From NCBI RefSeq assembly GCF_001042715.1, contig NZ_CP009687.1:733418-797417 (forward strand): a stretch of DNA of 64,000 bases, given 5' to 3'. The notes under the pieces were generated by a model, which was not told where the DNA came from, did no database searches, and saw only the letters and a list, made by a program, of their open reading frames with translations. Numbering within the stretch: position 1 is the stretch's first letter; each line of letters opens with the position of its first letter. The DNA is from Clostridium aceticum. GTDB taxonomy: Bacteria; Bacillota; Clostridia; Peptostreptococcales; Natronincolaceae. Positions 3,086 to 59,486 of this stretch are shown piece after piece. Position numbers and translations under genes: made by a program.

Positions 3086-3733
3086 TTAGCTGTATTTACT
3101 ATAATAACTTTCACTGCCGGCCAATCTTCTACTCATGAACACACTTCTATCAGAGTAAAGCTTATTTTCAAACCAATCAGGAAGATTAAAAGATGTATGA
3201 AGATAACCTTTTATTAAATCTATTCTAGCCTGTAGTGCATTCCATTTTTCAGGGTGTTCCTTTAAAAATAAAACAAAATGCTTTGGTCTAATTTGAAATA
3301 CTTTCTTTTCTCCAAACCTTCGTCCCTTTATATAACCATCTCTAACCCATCTATAGATTAGATTAGGATCTTTGTTCAATAAATAGCCGATATCGCCTGT
3401 GGTTAAAAATTCTCCGTTACCAATTCTTGAAGGACCTAACTGCAACTCAAAAGCTTTCTTTTTAATAGAAGCGTGACTTCTATTTAATGTTTTTGCTATT
3501 GTCTTTATAGAATGCAATCCCCACTTCTCTATTAAATACTCCTCTTCCTTTACAGACCACTTCTTCATAGGGGTAGTCAAGTTTAAGCGTTTTGCTTTTT
3601 TAACGATAGAATCGGGGGTTCGCTGTAGTTCTTCTGATATTTCACATATCTGTTTAACGCCATAGTACTTTTGTAAAAATTGTATTTCTGAAACTGTCCA
3701 TTTTGTATAAGGCATTTTTTTCTTCCTCCCCAA
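3086..3733 (-). CDS. DNA-binding protein with two Myb/SANT-like repeats and a C-terminal excisionase/MerR-type HTH (HTH_17-like)
   Basis: 215 aa. It has repeated W..SE...L / WSVKEEEYLIEKWG motifs, then LTTGDIGYLLNKDPNLIYRWVRDGYIKGRRFG, which resembles HTH_17 excisionase-family DNA-binding domains. Start may be the internal Met (MPYTKW). Confidence 0.45.
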   Translation of the reverse strand: MGRKKKMPYTKWTVSEIQFLQKYYGVKQICEISEELQRTPDSIVKKAKRLNLTTPMKKWSVKEEEYLIEKWGLHSIKTIAKTLNRSHASIKKKAFELQLGPSRIGNGEFLTTGDIGYLLNKDPNLIYRWVRDGYIKGRRFGEKKVFQIRPKHFVLFLKEHPEKWNALQARIDLIKGYLHTSFNLPDWFENKLYSDRSVFMSRRLAGSESYYSKYS

Positions 3734-4126: not shown

Positions 4127-4900
4127 TTATAAAACCTGAAATAATATCCGTTCAAACCTTTCCTTTGGATAGACGTCAATTTTTTTTATGGTTACTTTTC
4201 TTTTGATTAAAACACTAATCTGTTGTTCAACCTCACTTATGGTATTTTCATAAATTGCTTTCCTAAGAAACTCTACATTTTTATAGTGCTGACCTATAGC
4301 TAGAAAGCTTTCTTCTAAAACAGTAAGGGTTTCCTTTAAAACAATTTCGATCTCTTTTCCTTTAATAAAAACATTGATAAGTTGTGCGCCTTTTCCAGTC
4401 ACTTTTTTTAGATATTTTGAATACAAGTTTCTAATTTCAAGTTCCAACTGGGTTTTCATATCTTCTGTTAGAATGAGATCATGGTTTATGACCAGTAGAT
4501 TTCCTCTTTTTTCTAAAATTTCAGTAGCTATTTCTGTTAAATTATTCATCAATACATCTGCATCAATAGGCTTAATTAGGTACTTTTCTATCTTTAAATC
4601 TACCGTTTCCAGGATTGTTTTTGTATCTGATAAGGCAGATGTAATGATAAAAGGACATCGAAAACCATCGGTCCTTAGCTTTTTCATCATTTCTATACCA
4701 TTTATATCTGGCATAATTAAATCTGTTATAATAATGTCTGGTTGAAATTCAAGAAATTTGTTGATACCATCTTCGCCATTTTCAGCAGCAATTACTTTGC
4801 CAACCCTTTTTTTTAAGAATCTATAAACTTGATTCCTAGTAATGGCTTCATCTTCTACATAAAGGACCTTTATCTGTGATAATGCATTGATTTCTTCCAT
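4127..4900 (-). CDS. Response regulator: CheY-like receiver fused to a C-terminal DUF2294-like domain (no DNA-binding domain recognised)
   Basis: 257 aa. N-terminus IKVLYVEDEAITRNQV...IITDLIMPDINGIEMMKKLR is a receiver with a phospho-acceptor Asp context. C-terminal ~120 aa (TQLELEIRNLYSKYLKKVTGKGAQLINVFIKGKEIEIVLKETLTVLEE) matches my memory of DUF2294 (MpsC-like) proteins. Confidence 0.65.
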   Translation of the reverse strand: MEEINALSQIKVLYVEDEAITRNQVYRFLKKRVGKVIAAENGEDGINKFLEFQPDIIITDLIMPDINGIEMMKKLRTDGFRCPFIITSALSDTKTILETVDLKIEKYLIKPIDADVLMNNLTEIATEILEKRGNLLVINHDLILTEDMKTQLELEIRNLYSKYLKKVTGKGAQLINVFIKGKEIEIVLKETLTVLEESFLAIGQHYKNVEFLRKAIYENTISEVEQQISVLIKRKVTIKKIDVYPKERFERILFQVL

Positions 4901-6044: not shown

Positions 6045-6300
6045 ATGGCTCCCTCCTAACTTAGCTTAACTAAAAGTTATATAATATTTTCTGCATATCC
6101 AAACTTGACACCTTGATGAAATATAGAACTTATAGGTAGGGATAAAGTGGTAGTATAAAAATTTCTATAAGTCAATTGTAAAGAATGCAGAAGCTTGTCT
6201 ATTTCTAGTTTACTAGATTTTTATAGGATTGTCCAAAAAATTAAATTTCTAAGGGAACTTTTGTAAAACAATTTTTCTCTATTTTTTTATTGCATCTATA

Positions 6301-7702: not shown

Positions 7703-8446
7703 ATGCATTATTTTGTTTATGATGGAAGTTTCGAAGGTATGCTGACGGCCATCTACGAGGCGTATTACCTTCCTGAAAAACCTGAAAGAATTGTGAGGGA
7801 GGATACGCTACAAGAGAATATTTTTGTTTCTTTAATACCTATTATTACTGACAAAGACAAAGCGGAGAAGGTTTACAACGCTATTAAAGATAAGATATCC
7901 TATAGAGCCTTAAAAAATGTATTTTATGCCTTTTTATCAGAGGAGGAGGAAGCTGCTACAAAGGTATATCAATATCTAAGGCTGGGATGGAGAATTGGTG
8001 CCAAAATAGATGATTGTCACGGGGAGGATCGTGTCTTAGATCTCCATAAGCTAAGTCAGAAGGTTAGTAAGGAAGCCCATCGGATGACGGGGCTCCTTAG
8101 GTTCCAAAAACTAGAGAGCGATGTCTACTATGCTGAAATAGAACCAGATCATAATATCACTGCTTTGTTGGCACCTCATTTTGCTAGAAGGATGGCGGAT
8201 CAAAACTGGATCATCCACGATATCAAGAGGGGTTTAGCAGCTTTTTATAATAAAGAAAAATGGATGATGACGGAGGGGAAGCTACAGGGAGAGATAGCTT
8301 TGGATGAAGAAGAAATGCAGTATCAGGATTTATGGAGAAAATATTTTAAGGCGATAGCTATTAAAAACAGAAAAAACCCTAAACTACAAAAAGCTTATAT
8401 GCCAAAACGTTACTGGAAACACTTAATAGAACTAAAAGGAAAATAA
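7703..8446 (+). CDS. TIGR03915/DUF4130 family putative DNA metabolism protein (uracil-DNA-glycosylase-like partner of the radical SAM protein)
   Basis: 247 aa starting MHYFVYDGSFEGMLTAIYEAYY. It is co-directional and 31 nt downstream of the radical SAM gene, the conserved two-gene arrangement. Confidence 0.75.
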   Translation: MHYFVYDGSFEGMLTAIYEAYYLPEKPERIVREDTLQENIFVSLIPIITDKDKAEKVYNAIKDKISYRALKNVFYAFLSEEEEAATKVYQYLRLGWRIGAKIDDCHGEDRVLDLHKLSQKVSKEAHRMTGLLRFQKLESDVYYAEIEPDHNITALLAPHFARRMADQNWIIHDIKRGLAAFYNKEKWMMTEGKLQGEIALDEEEMQYQDLWRKYFKAIAIKNRKNPKLQKAYMPKRYWKHLIELKGK

Positions 8447-9348: not shown

Positions 9349-9570
9349 GTGAATATTATGGGTATAATTGTAAATTTAGATGTTATGATGGCTAAGAGAA
9401 AAATTTCATTGCAGGAATTAGCAGAACGGGTTGGTATAACAAATGCAAACCTTTCAATATTGAAAAATAATAAGGCAAAGGCTATAAGATTTAATACACT
9501 AGAAGCTATATGCAGAGAGTTAAACTGTCAGCCTGGAGATATATTGGAATATGTTTCTGATGAAGATTAA
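9349..9570 (+). CDS. XRE-family helix-turn-helix transcriptional regulator
   Basis: 73 aa. ISLQELAERVGITNANLSILKNNKAKAIRFNTLEAICRELNCQPGDILEY is a canonical Cro/C1 HTH. Confidence 0.8.
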   Translation: MNIMGIIVNLDVMMAKRKISLQELAERVGITNANLSILKNNKAKAIRFNTLEAICRELNCQPGDILEYVSDED

Positions 9571-9593
9571 TTTTATTTAAAGGGGGAGGGATA

Positions 9594-11567
9594 ATGGCTA
9601 AAAAAGTACAGGGAATCATTATAAAAAATGGCAAAGTTCTAACAGTAGAGGGGATGAATCAAGTTGGTAGAATGGAGCATTTTTTTATTTGGGGAGAGGT
9701 GAAGGACAGCGAGAAGGAAATAGAGGCTATGCAAAGAGTATTAGAGGAACAATTAAACTTAAAGCAGGGGATCGCCTTCCAGTTTGAAGAAGAGATAAAT
9801 AAAGGTACAAAAACATTTGTTGTTGATGTGCAGGAGGAAGAGATAGATTTAGAAAATTCTCTAGAAAAGGTGAACTGTTTTAGAAACTATTTTAAGCCGA
9901 TGGCATTAAGCTGGATAGAGTTAAGTGATCTATGGGCTTTTAGAGAACTTGAAATAAGTTACATAAAGCTTTTATTAAAAGAAGCTATTAAAAAGGAGTA
10001 TGAAGCCCCATGGATAGACATCATTAAAAATACCTACTTTAACCATCCAAGAGGGAAAGCCTATTTAAAAAAGTTGTATGTAGAAAATAAAAGAAACAAA
10101 ACTGACGCTGAAGAAAGCCTGGCAAATAAAGGCATCGTTATGGCGATGGCACTAGGTTTGGGGATCTTATTTGACTACTTTTTTGTAGGGGCACCTATAG
10201 GAATATCAGGATTAATTTTTAGTATGGCGATTCTTATTGTATCAATATGTGGGATGAATCAACCTAGGCGATTAAATAAAAAGCTAGGCTTTATCTTTTT
10301 AATACCTATTATTCTTTTATCCTTAAGTTTCGGGATATATAACAATGATGTACTAAAGACCATCAATGTGATAGCTATTCCTTTTTTAATAGCAAGTTAT
10401 TTAATAACCATAAGATATGAAAACGTAAAGGAAATAAACTTAAGCTTTGGGAGAAATGTTTTAGATAGGGTTTTTGTTAAAGTACATGGTATTCTTCCAA
10501 GATTTTTCATTTTTGGTAAAGAGATAAAAAGAGACAGAAAAAAATTAAAAGAAAATCCAAACCAGAAAAATATTATAAGAGGACTTTTGATATCTATACC
10601 CTTATTGGTGGTGGTACTCCTATTACTGACTTCTGCTGATATGATGTTTAAATACTATATTGATAACATTGCTAGGCTATTTAGCAAACTAAATACCATG
10701 AGTATGCTAAGACATACTTTTGTTATCAGTATAATTACACTGTATCTATTTGGCTTTCTATGGAGTTTTAAATACGATGAGATATCTTATAAAAGTAAAG
10801 GTACTTCTCTAATAAAAGCTTCATGGGAACCAGTAACCATAATAACAATTATATTTGTTATAAATATTGCTTATTTACTGTTTACGATTATACAATTTTC
10901 TTACTTATATGGGGGAGGGTTACAGGCTTTGCCGGAGGGACTTTCCTATGCTGAATATGCTAGAAAAGGATTTTTTGAACTTGTTTTAGTGACCCTTATC
11001 AACTTTAGCATATTGCTATTAAGTATAAATCTAACAAAGAAAGATTACAAAAAAGTCAACACAATAGCTAACTTCTCTTATAGTCTTTTAATTTTATTTA
11101 CCTTAAATATGGTAGTTTCTGCAAACTACAAAATGTATTTATATGAGAAGGCTTTTGGTTTTACTAGGCTGAGAATATTTGTTCAGGCATTTATGTTTTT
11201 AATTGGTATTCTGCTAATAATCCTGTTATTAGGAATATGGATCAATAAAACTCCTATCTTTCAATATGCAGTTATCGCTACATTGGTAGTTTATATAGGA
11301 CTAAATTTCATTAATGTAGACGGACTCATAGCAAAGGGAAATATCTTGAGGTATGAGGAAACGGGTATCATAGATATAAATTATATTAAACAATTATCCT
11401 ATGATGCAATACCACAGATGGCAAAGCTTTTAGAGGTGGAAGACCCCTTTATTAGAAATAACATAAAGGATCATATACAAGATGAAAAAGAAAGATTAGA
11501 CAAAAATGATGTGCATTGGTACGGATTTAATTATTATAAAAGCAAGTTATTAAGGAGTAATTTCTAA
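9594..11567 (+). CDS. Large polytopic membrane protein (DUF4153/DUF4173-like) with a ~170-aa soluble N-terminal domain
   Basis: 657 aa. The N-terminal region (GIIIKNGKVLTVEG...FIWGEV) is weakly NUDIX-like. At least 10 predicted TM helices follow. Confidence 0.45.
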   Translation: MAKKVQGIIIKNGKVLTVEGMNQVGRMEHFFIWGEVKDSEKEIEAMQRVLEEQLNLKQGIAFQFEEEINKGTKTFVVDVQEEEIDLENSLEKVNCFRNYFKPMALSWIELSDLWAFRELEISYIKLLLKEAIKKEYEAPWIDIIKNTYFNHPRGKAYLKKLYVENKRNKTDAEESLANKGIVMAMALGLGILFDYFFVGAPIGISGLIFSMAILIVSICGMNQPRRLNKKLGFIFLIPIILLSLSFGIYNNDVLKTINVIAIPFLIASYLITIRYENVKEINLSFGRNVLDRVFVKVHGILPRFFIFGKEIKRDRKKLKENPNQKNIIRGLLISIPLLVVVLLLLTSADMMFKYYIDNIARLFSKLNTMSMLRHTFVISIITLYLFGFLWSFKYDEISYKSKGTSLIKASWEPVTIITIIFVINIAYLLFTIIQFSYLYGGGLQALPEGLSYAEYARKGFFELVLVTLINFSILLLSINLTKKDYKKVNTIANFSYSLLILFTLNMVVSANYKMYLYEKAFGFTRLRIFVQAFMFLIGILLIILLLGIWINKTPIFQYAVIATLVVYIGLNFINVDGLIAKGNILRYEETGIIDINYIKQLSYDAIPQMAKLLEVEDPFIRNNIKDHIQDEKERLDKNDVHWYGFNYYKSKLLRSNF

Positions 11568-27392: not shown

Positions 27393-28078
27393 ATATAATA
27401 ATATTTTGGCAATAGGTATAATTTTCAATTTTCTTACTTAGTTCCATATCAAAAATTTGTAGCAGCAGGCTGCTTTCTTCACAGATTTTAGTCTGCTTTA
27501 CTTCGTTTATTTTTCTTTTTAGATCTTGTATCTCTTTTATTTCTCTTAAGACTTCCTTTTCTAGGTTATTTTGTACTAAACTCAGCACCATTCCAATTCC
27601 CCCTCATACGAATTAAAAAGAAATTATTTATAAGCTAAATATAGTACCCAAGTACTATATTTTTACATTATACCTCTTTTTTTGACAAATTTGTACATTT
27701 TTTTTCAAAATTCTTCTATAATTAAGTAGAAATATTCCCATTATCGTATTTTAAAATTGAAACTTTTTCAATAAAATATAGCCTATGAGGTTGGAAAAAC
27801 AGCAACTTTCTTGAAGAAAGTACCAATTCATGATATGATTTTAGATAATAGCAAACTAGTTGAAAGGCAAGGATACAAAGCAATGAGACTAAGGGAAAAC
27901 ACTTTTCTATGATTGCCAGGCTGCTAAACAGGTTATAGTATTGTAACCGTTTATTGGGACCTAAGAGAAAGTTTTTTTGCTTTCATGAAGAATATTTTTG
28001 ATAAAGAATATAAGCAACTTTAAAAATAGATACACTGATTTAGATAGAGTAAATTCACAAACAAGGTAGGTTTTATTA

Positions 28079-29428: not shown

Positions 29429-29599
29429 ACATATATCAGTACACTGTAAGAACAAAAACATAATGCATAATAAATAAAAGGAAAGAATTTGTAAAAAGTT
29501 TACATCAAACTACAGGACACTTCTAAAAAAGACTTGACAAGGAATGGTTTTCTTATTATTATATTAATAATATACTTAATATGTAGCAAAACGTTGAGT

Positions 29600-29865
29600 A
29601 AGAGGAGTAATTATGCTAGAAGATCACAGAGAGCCGGCGTTGGTGGGAGTCCGGCATTGGAAAGCGTAGTGAATGGGCTTATGAGTGGGAACTGAAGGAT
29701 TTAGTAGGTGACCCGGGTTTCTCCCGTTATAGAGATAGGATATCGGCTATGATACCTGTATCTGAAAAAGTGGGTTTAATTTATGACCAATTGAGGTGGC
29801 ACCGCGATGATTCGTCCTCTATACATTCTAAAGAATGTATAGAGGACTTTTTATTTGCAATGCTT
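29600..29865 (+). promoter_or_regulatory. T-box riboswitch leader (probable Trp specifier) with terminator/antiterminator, controlling trpB
   Basis: AGAGAG box near 29616. Conserved T-box sequence CAATTGAGGTGGCACCGCGATG at ~29789-29810. Terminator hairpin CCTCTATACATTCTAAAGAATGTATAGAGG + CTTTTTATTT at 29818-29862, overlapping the T-box to allow antitermination. UGGG present in the candidate specifier region. Confidence 0.85.
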
Positions 29866-37358: not shown

Positions 37359-37419
37359 GCTTTGTTAAATACTACTGTTGATTTTTGGTTAGATAATTGA
37401 TAGTAACAACTGATGGAGG

Positions 37420-37500
37420 CTTTGTCATCCTGAAGGAGTTGAAGGATATTGATTGATAGCGCTGATTATAGGATCCTTCGCTATTGCTCAGGATGACACT
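37420..37500. repeat. Family-1 repeat copy (palindromic pair of cores)
   Basis: TTTGTCATCCTGAAGGAGTTGAAGGATAT ... ATAGGATCCTTCGCTATTGCTCAGGATGACACT. Confidence 0.65.
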
Positions 37501-37563
37501 GACTGCAACCCTCAGAACTTTTTCAATAGCAACATCTATCTTTAATAGAATAGAGCTTAATTT

Positions 37564-37684
37564 TTATAGATGTGCGCCCCTAAATTTAAATATACTAAGG
37601 GCTACATTTGCAGCCTGCGGTTTTGAGGCGAAACCGTAGACCGTGTATATTAAAATTTAACTTTAGAAGCGCACATCTATAGAT
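37564..37684. repeat. Family-2 conserved ~70-nt structured element (copy 1) embedded in a 14-bp flanking inverted repeat
   Basis: Core ATATACTAAGGGCTACATTTGCAGCCTGCGGTTTTGAGGCGAAACCGTAGACCGTGTATATTAAAA is the reverse complement (with a few substitutions) of 58842-58913. Flanks TTATAGATGTGCGC / GCGCACATCTATAGA. Confidence 0.65.
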
Positions 37685-37711
37685 ATTAATTTTACGACTG
37701 AATAGATAAGG

Positions 37712-43664: not shown

Positions 43665-43949
43665 ATGATGACATTAGTACCAAGAACGCCACAATCAAAT
43701 TGCAGACCAAAACCAACACCTAAGCCAATACCAACGCCTTGTCCACAACTACCGGGAACATTGTTTAGAATTCATATTCCAGCAGGAGCAGTGATTAATT
43801 TGCTTAACCTTATAGAGCTTACTTCACCTAGTGGAATTTGCTTGATCATAAGAATTCCCGCTTTAGGAGGAAGCATAGGCAAAACTTTTTCTGCTGTAAC
43901 AGCTGCTATTGAGCAAGCTGGCGGCCAAGTAGAGATTATAGAAGAGTAG
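43665..43949 (+). CDS. Small Pro/Thr-rich, Cys-containing hypothetical protein, paralogue 1 of a tandem pair
   Basis: RBS GAGAGGAGGGAGA then ATGATG. 94 aa: MMTLVPRTPQSNCRPKPTPKPIPTPCPQLPGTLFRIHIPAGAVINLLNLIELTSPSGICLIIRIPALGGSIGKTFSAVTAAIEQAGGQVEIIEE. Confidence 0.5.
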   Translation: MMTLVPRTPQSNCRPKPTPKPIPTPCPQLPGTLFRIHIPAGAVINLLNLIELTSPSGICLIIRIPALGGSIGKTFSAVTAAIEQAGGQVEIIEE

Positions 43950-43969
43950 TATAAAAAAGAGGAGGGAGA

Positions 43970-44224
43970 ATGATGAGAACACCAGAAACAAACAATTTAG
44001 TTAGACCAACACCAACACGTTGCCCACAATTGCCAGGAACATTGATTAGAATCAATATTCCACCAGGAGCAGTAATTAATTTGCTTAACCTTATAGAAAT
44101 TACCTCCCCTGGCGGAGTTTGTTTAATTTTGAGAATTCCTATTTTAGGAGGAAGTAATCTTTTTTCAACTTTAACAGCTGCTATTGAACAGGCTGGAGGC
44201 AAAATAGAAGTTGTAGAAGAATAG
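43970..44224 (+). CDS. Small Pro/Thr-rich, Cys-containing hypothetical protein, paralogue 2 of the tandem pair
   Basis: Identical RBS/start context (GGAGGGAGAATGATGA). 84 aa, ~75% identical to paralogue 1 over the shared CPQLPGTL...AVINLLNLIE...TAAIEQAGG core, with a shorter Pro-rich N-terminus. Confidence 0.5.
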   Translation: MMRTPETNNLVRPTPTRCPQLPGTLIRINIPPGAVINLLNLIEITSPGGVCLILRIPILGGSNLFSTLTAAIEQAGGKIEVVEE

Positions 44225-44240
44225 CGAAAAAAACACTAAA

Positions 44241-55454: not shown

Positions 55455-55745
55455 AATATTAAAAAAGACTATGAAGAGAAGAGTAGGTATAGGAAGTAAT
55501 TATAGCGAGTTGGTGGCGGTGGAAGACCAACATGAAGCCTGTATTGAAGAACATCTCTGAGTCCCTAATCGAAATACCTTGTGTAGAGTAGGCTTAGGCG
55601 GAACCAAACCGTTATCTATTGGACAGTATCGAATTTTTTTCCGTACTGATAAGAGAGCTAGAGTATTTAGCTAACCAAGGTGGTACCGCGGAGACAATTA
55701 TGTCCTTCGTCCTTATATAAGGATGAAGGACTTTTTATTTTGAAA
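55455..55745 (+). promoter_or_regulatory. T-box riboswitch leader (probable Asn specifier AAC) controlling asnA
   Basis: Conserved T-box AACCAAGGTGGTACCGCGGAG at ~55673-55693. Terminator GTCCTTCGTCCTTATATAAGGATGAAGGAC + TTTTTATTTT at 55700-55742. GAAGAACAUC in the candidate specifier region. Confidence 0.85.
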
Positions 55746-58660: not shown

Positions 58661-58841
58661 GTATTCTTCTCAACTTCTTTCTTTAAAATTTATTATAAAT
58701 TATAGGAAATTTATCTATCTTAAGGCAAATATAAAACCACAAAGAAGATTTTATCATAAACAGCGGCTTCCTACAATTATTATATGTTAAATATGCACTT
58801 TTTTTAAGTGAAGCCTATAGATAAGCAAGTTCAAACTTTAA

Positions 58842-58913
58842 TTTTGATATACACGGTCTACGGTTTCGCCCCAAAACCGTGGGCTGCAAATGTAGCCCTT
58901 AGTATATCAAAAT
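58842..58913. repeat. Family-2 conserved ~70-nt structured element (copy 2, inverted relative to copy 1)
   Basis: TTTTGATATACACGGTCTACGGTTTCGCCCCAAAACCGTGGGCTGCAAATGTAGCCCTTAGTATATCAAAATT. Two internal hairpins (CGGTTT.../...AAACCG and GGGCT-GCAAATGT-AGCCC). Confidence 0.65.
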
Positions 58914-59486
58914 TAAGTACTGATGTTGTTTATCTATACCTATGAAAGTAGAGCATGAGTATAGTATTTGATAAAAGCTATATAGTATGTTATTGTTTTA
59001 TTGACAAGTTTAGCGTTTTCTATTACATAAATAGCAAGTAAACTTCCTTTAGTAAAGAGAAATGTGAGAAAACTTTATCTAAAGGGTGGGAGAATAAAAG
59101 AAGTACATGAGGAAAAAGAAATTGTTAAATAAATATCAATATTAAACATGTTTTAAAATTAACCGTATATAAAATTATATACCCGTTAGTTAGAAAGGTA
59201 AATATTACAAAAATAACTGGCTTATTTTTAAGTTTAATTAAAAAAATTCATAAAAATTAAAATAAATTCTTGAAAAAGAACAAAAACATGATATAATAAT
59301 AACAATTGAAAAAAATCCAAAAATATTAAAAGTTTTAGCAAGAGATAAAAAATTGATAATTATTTAACAATCAAATATCGAGTGATTTACTTCATGCCGT
59401 AAATGTTGTAAAATTTGTATGAGGGGTTAGCTGTATAATGACAAAACGAGTATTTATCTCAATAGGATAGAAAGGAGTGTAAGTAA

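What the first reader, a model, noticed from the sequence alone, without database searches (positions are those of the whole stretch)
37564..37684. Second conserved ~70-nt structured element present twice in inverted orientation, with possible compensatory changes
The core at 37589-37655 (ATATACTAAGGGCTACATTTGCAGCCTGCGGTTTTGAGGCGAAACCGTAGACCGTGTATATTAAAA) is the reverse complement of 58842-58913 with ~6 substitutions. It contains two hairpins: GGGCT-GCAAATGT-AGCCC, and CGGTTT-[TGAGGCG/CCCCAAA]-AAACCG. Substitutions cluster in loops or unpaired segments (CCTGCGG vs CCCACGG; GAGGCG vs GGGGCG), consistent with a conserved RNA fold. Copy 1 is embedded in its own 14-bp flanking inverted repeat (TTATAGATGTGCGC / GCGCACATCTATAGA) at a convergent junction. 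Copy 2 sits in the divergent region between typA and the NuoE-like operon. It could be a small RNA gene, a REP-type element, or a protein-binding structured site. It is unrelated to family 1.
Basis: seen in the sequence. Interest (0 to 1): 0.55.

Follow-up and report, generated by a model that had tools for sequence, protein, structure and literature searches.

The report
Small mobile hairpin repeat (MITE)
The two look-alike 70-base stretches are the centres of two copies of a small non-coding "jumping" DNA element (a MITE, 113 and 119 bases) that has spread through Clostridium aceticum and its relatives; it is a new example of a well-known kind of bacterial repeat, not a new RNA gene.

Summary
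Two inverted copies share a 94%-identical centre, and none is expected by chance. Each copy is a complete element: W1 at 37567-37679 (+) and W2 at 58818-58936 (-). Each has 29-35-nt terminal inverted arms (TAGAT...ATCTA) and a TA on both sides.

The window is Clostridium aceticum. The same element occurs at least 40 times in Anaerovirgula multivorans, twice in Natronincola peptidivorans and once in C. formicaceticum. All 41 tested copies lie between genes. All 27 copies with both ends recognisable are flanked by TA/TA.

At the typA leader, C. formicaceticum carries a copy where C. aceticum has an empty site. Deleting the element plus one TA restores a gap-free alignment, so there is a TA target-site duplication. 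Both C. aceticum sites are empty in C. formicaceticum.

No Rfam family matches. Covariation is weak and fits three competing folds. [quoted passage not shown]

One feature is unusual. The 49-nt centre is better conserved (92-96%) than the arms (59-75% between subfamilies), and the arms change in a compensated way.

I rate it a new member of a known kind, of modest interest.

The parts
37565..37566 (.). TA flanking W1 on the left (one copy of the duplicated target)
   Evidence: Read from the sequence. TA/TA flanks are found in 27 of 27 copies with both ends recognised. The duplication itself was shown at another copy.
37567..37679 (+). Element copy W1, 113 nt, subfamily B' (TAGATGTGCGC...GCGCACATCTA)
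   Evidence: (I7). It is 94.7% identical to the C. formicaceticum copy, which sits at a non-orthologous site.
37567..37595 (+). W1 left terminal inverted arm (29 nt)
   Evidence: (I7).
37596..37644 (+). W1 conserved 49-nt centre (TAAGGGCTAC...GTAGACCGT)
37645..37679 (+). W1 right terminal inverted arm (35 nt)
   Evidence: (I7).
37680..37681 (.). TA flanking W1 on the right
58816..58817 (.). TA flanking W2 (3' side of the element as oriented on the - strand)
58818..58936 (-). Element copy W2, 119 nt, subfamily A (TAGATAAACAAC...GCTTATCTA)
   Evidence: (I8). It is 92.4% identical to the A. multivorans class A consensus.
58902..58936 (-). W2 left terminal inverted arm (35 nt)
   Evidence: I8.
58853..58901 (-). 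W2 conserved 49-nt centre
58818..58852 (-). W2 right terminal inverted arm (35 nt)
   Evidence: I8.
58937..58938 (.). TA flanking W2 (5' side of the element as oriented on the - strand)

Best explanation

Anatomy. An element is 112-119 nt long and non-coding. It has terminal inverted arms that begin TAGA(T/C) and end (A/G)TCTA. Inside these is a 13-bp inverted repeat, AATTTTRATATAC / GTATATYAAAATT. At the middle is a 49-nt imperfectly palindromic centre.

Mechanism. The element inserts at a TA dinucleotide and duplicates it. The most likely way is cut-and-paste by a DDE transposase supplied in trans, probably of the IS630/Tc1-mariner type. That is the IS family I know to duplicate TA, and the one proposed for the pneumococcal RUP element.

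Shown here:
- Many dispersed copies, all intergenic.
- Inverted terminal arms.
- TA on both sides.
- A filled site versus an empty site that differ by exactly the element plus one TA.
- Independent insertions in sister species.
- Longer forms (about 170 and about 220 nt) made by one or two extra 50-nt modules in the arms.

Inferred, not shown:
- The transposase family.
- That the conserved inner repeat and centre are kept because they are needed in cis for mobility, or because spread was recent and partly horizontal.
- That effects on neighbouring genes (hairpins in transcripts at the convergent junction and next to the typA promoter) are by-products.
For: Copy number and spread. An exact 20-mer from the core finds 37 places on 22 contigs of Anaerovirgula multivorans and 2 in Natronincola peptidivorans. 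Three more diverged copies lie in the same loci. One copy lies in C. formicaceticum.

Location and size. All 41 tested copies lie outside ORFs of at least 100 aa. All 27 copies with both ends recognised have TA on both sides. Sizes cluster at 112-113, 118-119, about 170 and about 220 nt.

Empty-site test. The 113-nt copy in the C. formicaceticum typA leader is absent from C. aceticum. Removing the element plus one TA gives a gap-free alignment through the junction. Removing the element alone, or the element plus both TAs, needs a 2-nt gap.

Reciprocal absence. The W1 site in C. formicaceticum is a 59-nt spacer holding only a plain terminator-like hairpin. The W2 site is also empty there. A. 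multivorans and N. ferrireducens have no copy upstream of typA.

Conservation. W2 is 92% identical to the A. multivorans consensus and W1 is 95% identical to the C. formicaceticum copy, at non-orthologous sites. The typA genes themselves are only 79% and 87% identical.

No RNA family. No Rfam family matches at either site, even at E-values up to 10.

Fit to the class. The features match the published description of bacterial MITEs: under 200 bp, TIRs, 5'-TA-3' ends, TSD, A+T-rich, long stem-loop transcripts, and size variants differing by a 50-bp insert in Correia (PMC2229807).
Against: No transposase gene with matching ends was found. The roughly 0.45 Mb of related DNA I held contains no long multi-copy repeat and no long-range inverted pair with these ends. 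The whole genomes could not be searched.

Conservation is the reverse of the usual MITE pattern. The centre is 92-96% identical between subfamilies while the arms are 59-75% identical. The arms of subfamilies B and B' differ by three transitions, each matched in the other arm. That suggests selection on a folded single strand, or co-evolution with different transposases.

Only one clean filled/empty pair was obtained. A weak orientation bias relative to co-directional neighbours (14 versus 4) is unexplained.
Confidence: 0.8

Rival explanations
1. The conserved centre is a functional structured RNA, either a small RNA gene or a cis-acting RNA module. It is carried on, or merely flanked by, inverted repeats, and the family is kept by selection on the RNA fold.
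For: The centre is more conserved than the arms and more conserved than housekeeping genes between genera. A few double changes keep pairing:
- L033: G-C to A-U in hairpin 2.
- L021b: GGACT/AGTCC in hairpin 1.
- L017: ATATGC/GCATAT in the inner stem.
- W1: CCT/AGG versus CCC/GGG in W2.

By my hand tally from the listing, leaving out the three most diverged copies and the chimeras, G.U-type mismatches outnumber A.C-type mismatches on the core strand by about 14 to 6. An extended -10-like TGATATACT lies in the left arm of subfamily A (read from the sequence).
Against: No Rfam match. The fraction of paired cells is barely above shuffled (94.9% versus 94.1%). Three incompatible folds fit about equally well. 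The C. formicaceticum copy breaks hairpin 1.

Copies sit in every orientation relative to neighbours. Most co-directional cases are antisense to the core strand. There is no terminator-like site. The TA duplication and filled/empty sites show that insertion, not gene descent, explains the distribution.
Confidence: 0.1
2. It is a REP/REPIN-like element that moves as a single-stranded DNA hairpin through a HUH (RAYT or IS200/IS605-type) enzyme. Selection on the hairpin then explains the compensated arm changes.
For: The whole element is one long imperfect palindrome with strongly negative folding z-scores on both strands. The arms of subfamilies B and B' differ by three transitions, each compensated in the other arm. 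There is a weak orientation bias. The 50-nt X modules found inside long copies begin with GTAG/GCAG followed by a palindrome, which is REP-like.
Against: A 2-bp TA target duplication was shown and TA/TA flanks are universal. To my knowledge, HUH single-strand transposition leaves no duplication. The ends are true terminal inverted repeats rather than subterminal hairpins. No RAYT or TnpA gene was seen next to any copy in the loci inspected.
Confidence: 0.06
3. The two inverted copies are recombination sites that invert the 21-kb segment between them.
For: The two copies are in inverted orientation, 21,132 nt apart (I1).
Against: Gene order across this interval is colinear with C. formicaceticum, which lacks both copies. 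The same element occurs dozens of times elsewhere in all orientations. The arms are only 59-75% identical between the two copies.
Confidence: 0.01

Closest known systems
Correia / NEMIS elements of Neisseria
   Same: Both are about 100-155-nt non-coding elements with terminal inverted repeats, TA at the termini, a TA target duplication and long stem-loop transcripts. Both have size variants that differ by an internal block of about 50 bp (PMC2229807). As I recall the Correia ends (TATAG...), both families begin TA|TAG once the flanking TA is included; that recollection was not checked here.
   Different: The sequence is unrelated, as far as I can tell from memory (not tested). The host is a Gram-positive anaerobe. 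Here the extra 50-nt blocks sit in the arms, one per arm in direct orientation, rather than in the middle. No IHF site was identified.
RUP (repeat unit of pneumococcus), proposed to be mobilised by IS630-Spn1
   Same: Both are Firmicute MITEs of about 107 nt that insert at TA and occur in the intergenic regions at around 100 copies (PMC2229807). Both tend to cluster with other repeat families (PMC10969869). Here a 'family 1' repeat lies 70 nt from W1.
   Different: For RUP a cognate IS with matching ends is known. Here none was found. The arms here are longer (29-35 nt versus 9 bp of TIR).
ERIC / IRU elements of enterobacteria
   Same: Both are imperfect palindromes of about 127 nt, intergenic, with TA ends and a TSD (PMC2229807). 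From my own knowledge, ERIC also has a highly conserved central part and longer variants made by insertions at fixed internal sites.
   Different: The phylum and the sequence differ. ERIC TIRs are very short (7 bp).
BOX elements of pneumococcus and bcr1-type repeats of the Bacillus cereus group (from my own knowledge)
   Same: All are modular, with variable numbers of internal modules. All are short Firmicute intergenic repeats that fold into stable hairpins and show some compensated changes.
   Different: There is no sequence relation, and module order and target duplications differ. I did not test these here.

Membership tests
Bacterial MITE (as characterised in PMC2229807) | Small (about 100-200 bp) and non-coding | tested here: met
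   Elements are 112-119 nt, with long forms of about 170 and about 220 nt. Only short chance ORFs cross them.
Bacterial MITE (as characterised in PMC2229807) | Terminal inverted repeats | tested here: met
   Arms of 35-37 nt are 81-86% complementary in both window copies (I7 and I8). Terminal pairs are kept across subfamilies.
Bacterial MITE (as characterised in PMC2229807) | Target-site duplication, shown by filled versus empty sites | tested here: met
   The C. formicaceticum filled site minus the element and one TA aligns without a gap to the C. aceticum empty site. TA/TA flanks occur in 27 of 27 copies. Only one clean pair was obtained.
Bacterial MITE (as characterised in PMC2229807) | Many dispersed copies, mainly intergenic | tested here: met
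   At least 40 copies lie on 22 contigs of A. multivorans. None of 41 copies lies inside an ORF of at least 100 aa.
Bacterial MITE (as characterised in PMC2229807) | A+T-rich | tested here: inconclusive
   Elements are 34-40% G+C against 35% for the window. They are A+T-rich in absolute terms but no more so than the genome.
Bacterial MITE (as characterised in PMC2229807) | An autonomous IS in the same genome with matching ends | tested here: inconclusive
   None was found in about 0.45 Mb of loci.
IS630/Tc1-mariner-mobilised MITE | Duplication of a TA dinucleotide | tested here: met
IS630/Tc1-mariner-mobilised MITE | TIR similarity to an IS630-family element | not tested
   No IS630-family sequence from these genomes was available to compare.
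REP / REPIN (RAYT-mobilised) | No target duplication; a short G+C-rich palindrome with a GTAG head; an associated RAYT gene | tested here: not met
   A TA duplication is present. The ends are TAGAT, the element is A+T-rich and 113-119 nt long, and no RAYT-like gene was seen beside the copies inspected.
Any Rfam RNA family | A covariance-model score at or near the gathering threshold | tested here: not met
   There is nothing at either site at gathering scores. At E-values up to 10, only miRNA-precursor and snoRNA chance hits appear, far below threshold.
Small RNA gene / cis-regulatory RNA | One fold supported by covariation; a fixed orientation or context; a promoter and terminator | tested here: inconclusive
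   Four of 23 pairs show double changes, but paired cells are 94.9% against 94.1% after shuffling, and there are competing folds. Copies occur in all four flank orientations. No terminator-like site was found. Transcription cannot be tested with these tools.

The most novel reading that the evidence does not exclude
The 49-nt centre plus the inner 13-bp repeat may be a selected functional module that works as a folded single strand. Either it is an RNA (a mobile regulatory or processing signal dropped next to genes such as typA), or it is a single-stranded DNA structure required for an unusual transposition pathway that still duplicates TA. This would explain two observations: the centre is better conserved than the arms and than housekeeping genes across three genera, and the arms evolve by compensated transitions.
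Probability: 0.15. Interest if true: 0.5.

Novelty: new member of a known kind. Interest (0 to 1): 0.3.

Why it matters
This gives a name and exact boundaries to an unannotated repeat family in the first isolated acetogen and its alkaliphilic relatives. That helps in four ways:
- It prevents the family from being mis-annotated as small RNA genes or small ORFs.
- It marks places where intergenic regions have been remodelled, namely the typA promoter and leader and a convergent terminator region.
- It provides insertion polymorphisms usable as strain or species markers.
- It points to an active or recently active TA-targeting transposase in this clade.

The inverted conservation pattern, with the centre better conserved than the ends and compensated changes in the arms, is a small open question about what is selected in such elements.

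Tried and rejected
- **Rfam.** I scanned at gathering scores over the whole window and at E-values up to 10 at both sites. Nothing relevant turned up. No tRNA or tmRNA was found.
- **Plasmids and phages.** BLAST of W2 against both collections gave no match. A viral-contig scan with the 3' half of the core gave none.
- **Metagenomes.** A scan with a gapped two-anchor pattern gave 41 loci. All were chance hits in coding DNA, with no nhmmer score above 16 bits.
- **Cognate transposase.** An all-against-all megablast of the loci found no long repeat other than overlaps and orthologous synteny. A scan for 13-nt inverted seeds 0.7-3 kb apart gave one hit with the element's end, and that hit lies inside an ordinary gene. 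A solo arm in L021 is a truncated copy next to a terminator, not an IS end. Fetching the C. aceticum plasmid by accession failed.
- **A second clean empty site.** I tried L012 against window about 31.1 kb, but the downstream neighbours differ. The W1 and W2 sites in C. formicaceticum are empty but too diverged to align base by base at the junction.
- **Strand assignment.** Wobble counts lean towards the core strand in the centre but the other way in the class A arms. Folding energies are similar on both strands. I drew no conclusion.
- **Inversion-site idea.** I rejected it because gene order is colinear with C. formicaceticum.

Full report
**1. The observation**

Similarity runs on for 103 nt at 84% (pair I1). 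Two core words of 20 and 23 nt each occur exactly twice in the window, against none in 100 shuffles.

Both copies have one. The arms are 35 nt at 86% complementarity around copy 1 and 37 nt at 81% around copy 2 (I7 and I8). Each copy folds as one long hairpin on either strand, with z-scores of -6.1 to -8.1.

**2. Organism and context**

The window's TypA protein is identical to that of Clostridium aceticum (assembly GCA_000949285.1, contig JYHU01000002.1).
- Copy W1 lies in a 353-nt spacer between a convergent histidine kinase and a K+ channel gene.
- Copy W2 lies between divergent typA and a NuoE/NuoF-like operon, in the same orientation as typA.
- From sequence conserved in four species, the likely typA promoter is TG-A-TAAAAT at about 58748-58756 (-). 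W2 ends about 65 nt upstream of it. This promoter assignment is an inference.

**3. It is a dispersed family**

One scan of species-representative genomes with a 20-nt core word gave the following:
- 37 places on 22 contigs of Anaerovirgula multivorans SCA.
- 2 places in Natronincola peptidivorans.
- 1 chance hit in a Caballeronia genome.

A profile search of those loci added three diverged copies. A profile search of typA loci added one copy in C. formicaceticum, which carries one mismatch in the word. The window holds only the two copies, even at permissive thresholds. Metagenome, viral, plasmid and phage searches found no further members.

**4. Anatomy**

An element reads: TA | arm | 49-nt centre | arm | TA. 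The arms start TAGA(T/C) and end (A/G)TCTA. Next to the centre, all copies share an inner inverted repeat, AATTTTRATATAC / GTATATYAAAATT.

Subfamilies differ in the outer arms:
- A: TAGATAACCAAC..., 118-119 nt. W2 belongs here.
- B: TAGACATACGCC..., 112 nt.
- B': TAGATGTGCGCC..., 113 nt. W1 and the C. formicaceticum copy belong here.
- A further type in Natronincola.

Longer forms also occur. About 11 copies are 220-222 nt and about five are 169-171 nt. These carry a 50-nt module ('X') in both arms or in one arm. The module sits at AA^TT and is in the same orientation in both arms. Chimeras with an A left arm and a B-like right arm also exist (L007, L010, L038).

All 41 tested copies lie outside ORFs of at least 100 aa.

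**5. Evidence for mobility**

All 27 copies whose two ends I could recognise have TA on both sides.

At the typA leader, C. formicaceticum has a 113-nt copy 46 nt upstream of the start codon, and C. aceticum has none there.
- Deleting the element plus one TA from the C. formicaceticum sequence gives a gap-free alignment across the junction with C. aceticum (...TTTCCTATA|ATTTAT...).
- Deleting the element alone needs a 2-nt gap.
- Deleting the element plus both TAs also needs a 2-nt gap.

That is a TA target-site duplication.

The reverse also holds. The W1 site in C. formicaceticum is a 59-nt spacer with a plain terminator-like hairpin. The W2 site is empty there. A. multivorans and N. ferrireducens have no copy upstream of typA. 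So the two sister Clostridium species each carry a copy near typA, but at different positions and from different subfamilies. These were independent insertions.

**6. Is there a conserved RNA fold?**

- 94.9% of cells pair, against 94.1% after shuffling.
- 4 of 23 pairs have a change on both sides, covering 11 cells.
- Eight of those 11 cells are a single subfamily switch (G-C to A-T in the inner repeat).
- An alternative partner for the second hairpin scores about the same.

RNAalifold prefers a third reading, in which the centre simply continues the long imperfect palindrome.

Single copies give support to different folds:
- L033 supports hairpin 2.
- L021b supports hairpin 1.
- W1 (CCT/AGG) supports the long palindrome.
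- The C. formicaceticum copy breaks hairpin 1.

Wobble-versus-A.C counts lean to the core strand in the centre (about 14 to 6 by my tally; not significant) and lean the other way in the class A arms. No Rfam family matches. No terminator-like site is present. I conclude that a specific conserved RNA structure is not demonstrated.

**7. Explanation**

The features match the published description of bacterial MITEs: under 200 bp, non-coding, TIRs, 5'-TA-3' ends, a target duplication, long stem-loop transcripts, and size variants that differ by about 50 bp, as in Correia (PMC2229807).

To my knowledge, duplication of TA is the signature of IS630/Tc1-mariner transposases. RUP is proposed to be moved by IS630-Spn1 (same paper). 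I therefore infer trans-mobilisation by such an enzyme.

I could not find that enzyme in the roughly 0.45 Mb of related DNA I held.

**8. What is unusual**

The centre is 92-96% identical between subfamilies and genera, while the arms are 59-75% identical.

W2 is 92% identical to the A. multivorans consensus although the typA genes are 79% identical. W1 is 95% identical to the C. formicaceticum copy although typA is 87% identical.

Subfamilies B and B' differ in the arm by three transitions, each mirrored in the other arm.

Possible reasons are:
- a cis requirement for the centre in transposition;
- recent horizontal spread;
- co-evolution with transposase variants;
- selection on a folded single strand.

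I cannot separate these. There is also a weak orientation bias between co-directional neighbours: 14 antisense to the core strand against 4 sense.

**9. Novelty**

The family is not mentioned in the C. aceticum genome paper (PMC4600107). A 2024 review of prokaryotic MITEs contains no mention of Clostridia, Firmicutes or Bacillus (PMC10969869). It is not in Rfam.

It is a new member of a known kind. Interest is modest. It is useful for annotation and as a marker, and it leaves a small open question about why the centre is so conserved.

Noticed in passing
One copy sits only about 70 nt upstream of W1 in the same expanded spacer (D3, I2, I3, I11).
   Followed up: partly
window 29585-29822 (+), 55462-55717 (+), 27840-27928 (+): There are two T-box leaders and one c-di-GMP-I riboswitch, all above Rfam gathering scores.
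   Followed up: no
L025 about 6057-6108 and 6212-6262; the same module in about 16 other A. multivorans loci; L010 about 4400-4480: A 50-nt module 'X' reads G(C/T)AGATGAC..AAATC-NNN-GATTT..GTCAGTC.... It is inserted at AA^TT in one or both arms of the element, in direct orientation, which makes the 170- and 220-nt forms. It also occurs on its own as a tandem pair next to L010's copy, and an X-like unit lies upstream of typA in C. formicaceticum (L042 about 9480-9530). Its GTAG head plus palindrome looks REP-like.
   Followed up: partly
L009 about 3170-3290, L012 about 2150-2260, L015 about 7750-7870, L029 about 1870-1990, L038 about 800-920: This is another A. multivorans repeat family, whose units also begin TAGATAAAC (like W2's left end). 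Each has two hairpins and often occurs as a tandem pair. No ORF is nearby that looks like a transposase.
   Followed up: partly
L029 1167-1241 and 1306-1522: One A. multivorans copy sits between a T-box leader (146 bits) and the gene it presumably controls. This shows that insertion into a 5' leader is tolerated, as in the C. formicaceticum typA leader.
   Followed up: partly
L046 about 9700-9990 (N. ferrireducens typA upstream) and the ends of the L009/L038 repeats: The motif TCTGAATTAAGTG(G/T)CATTTTAT occurs twice upstream of typA in N. ferrireducens. A close variant (ATGAATTAAGTCTCATTTTAT) follows the TAGATAAAC-type repeats in A. multivorans.
   Followed up: no
window 37359-37711 versus L089 10826-10884: The convergent spacer is 353 nt in C. 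aceticum but 59 nt in C. formicaceticum. In C. formicaceticum it is a single terminator-like hairpin (TCAAAATCTTCT/AGAAGATTTTGA). That hairpin is missing in C. aceticum, where the two repeat elements occupy the spacer.
   Followed up: partly
window 43725-44233: There are two tandem direct repeats, 149 nt at 82% and 73 nt at 79%, spaced about 280 nt apart. They look like a tandem duplication of a small gene or its 3' end (D1 and D2).
   Followed up: no
L042 about 9590-9840: Between the conserved typA promoter region and its element copy, C. formicaceticum has about 190 nt of extra sequence that C. aceticum lacks. This includes a partial repeat of the AT-rich leader segment.
   Followed up: no
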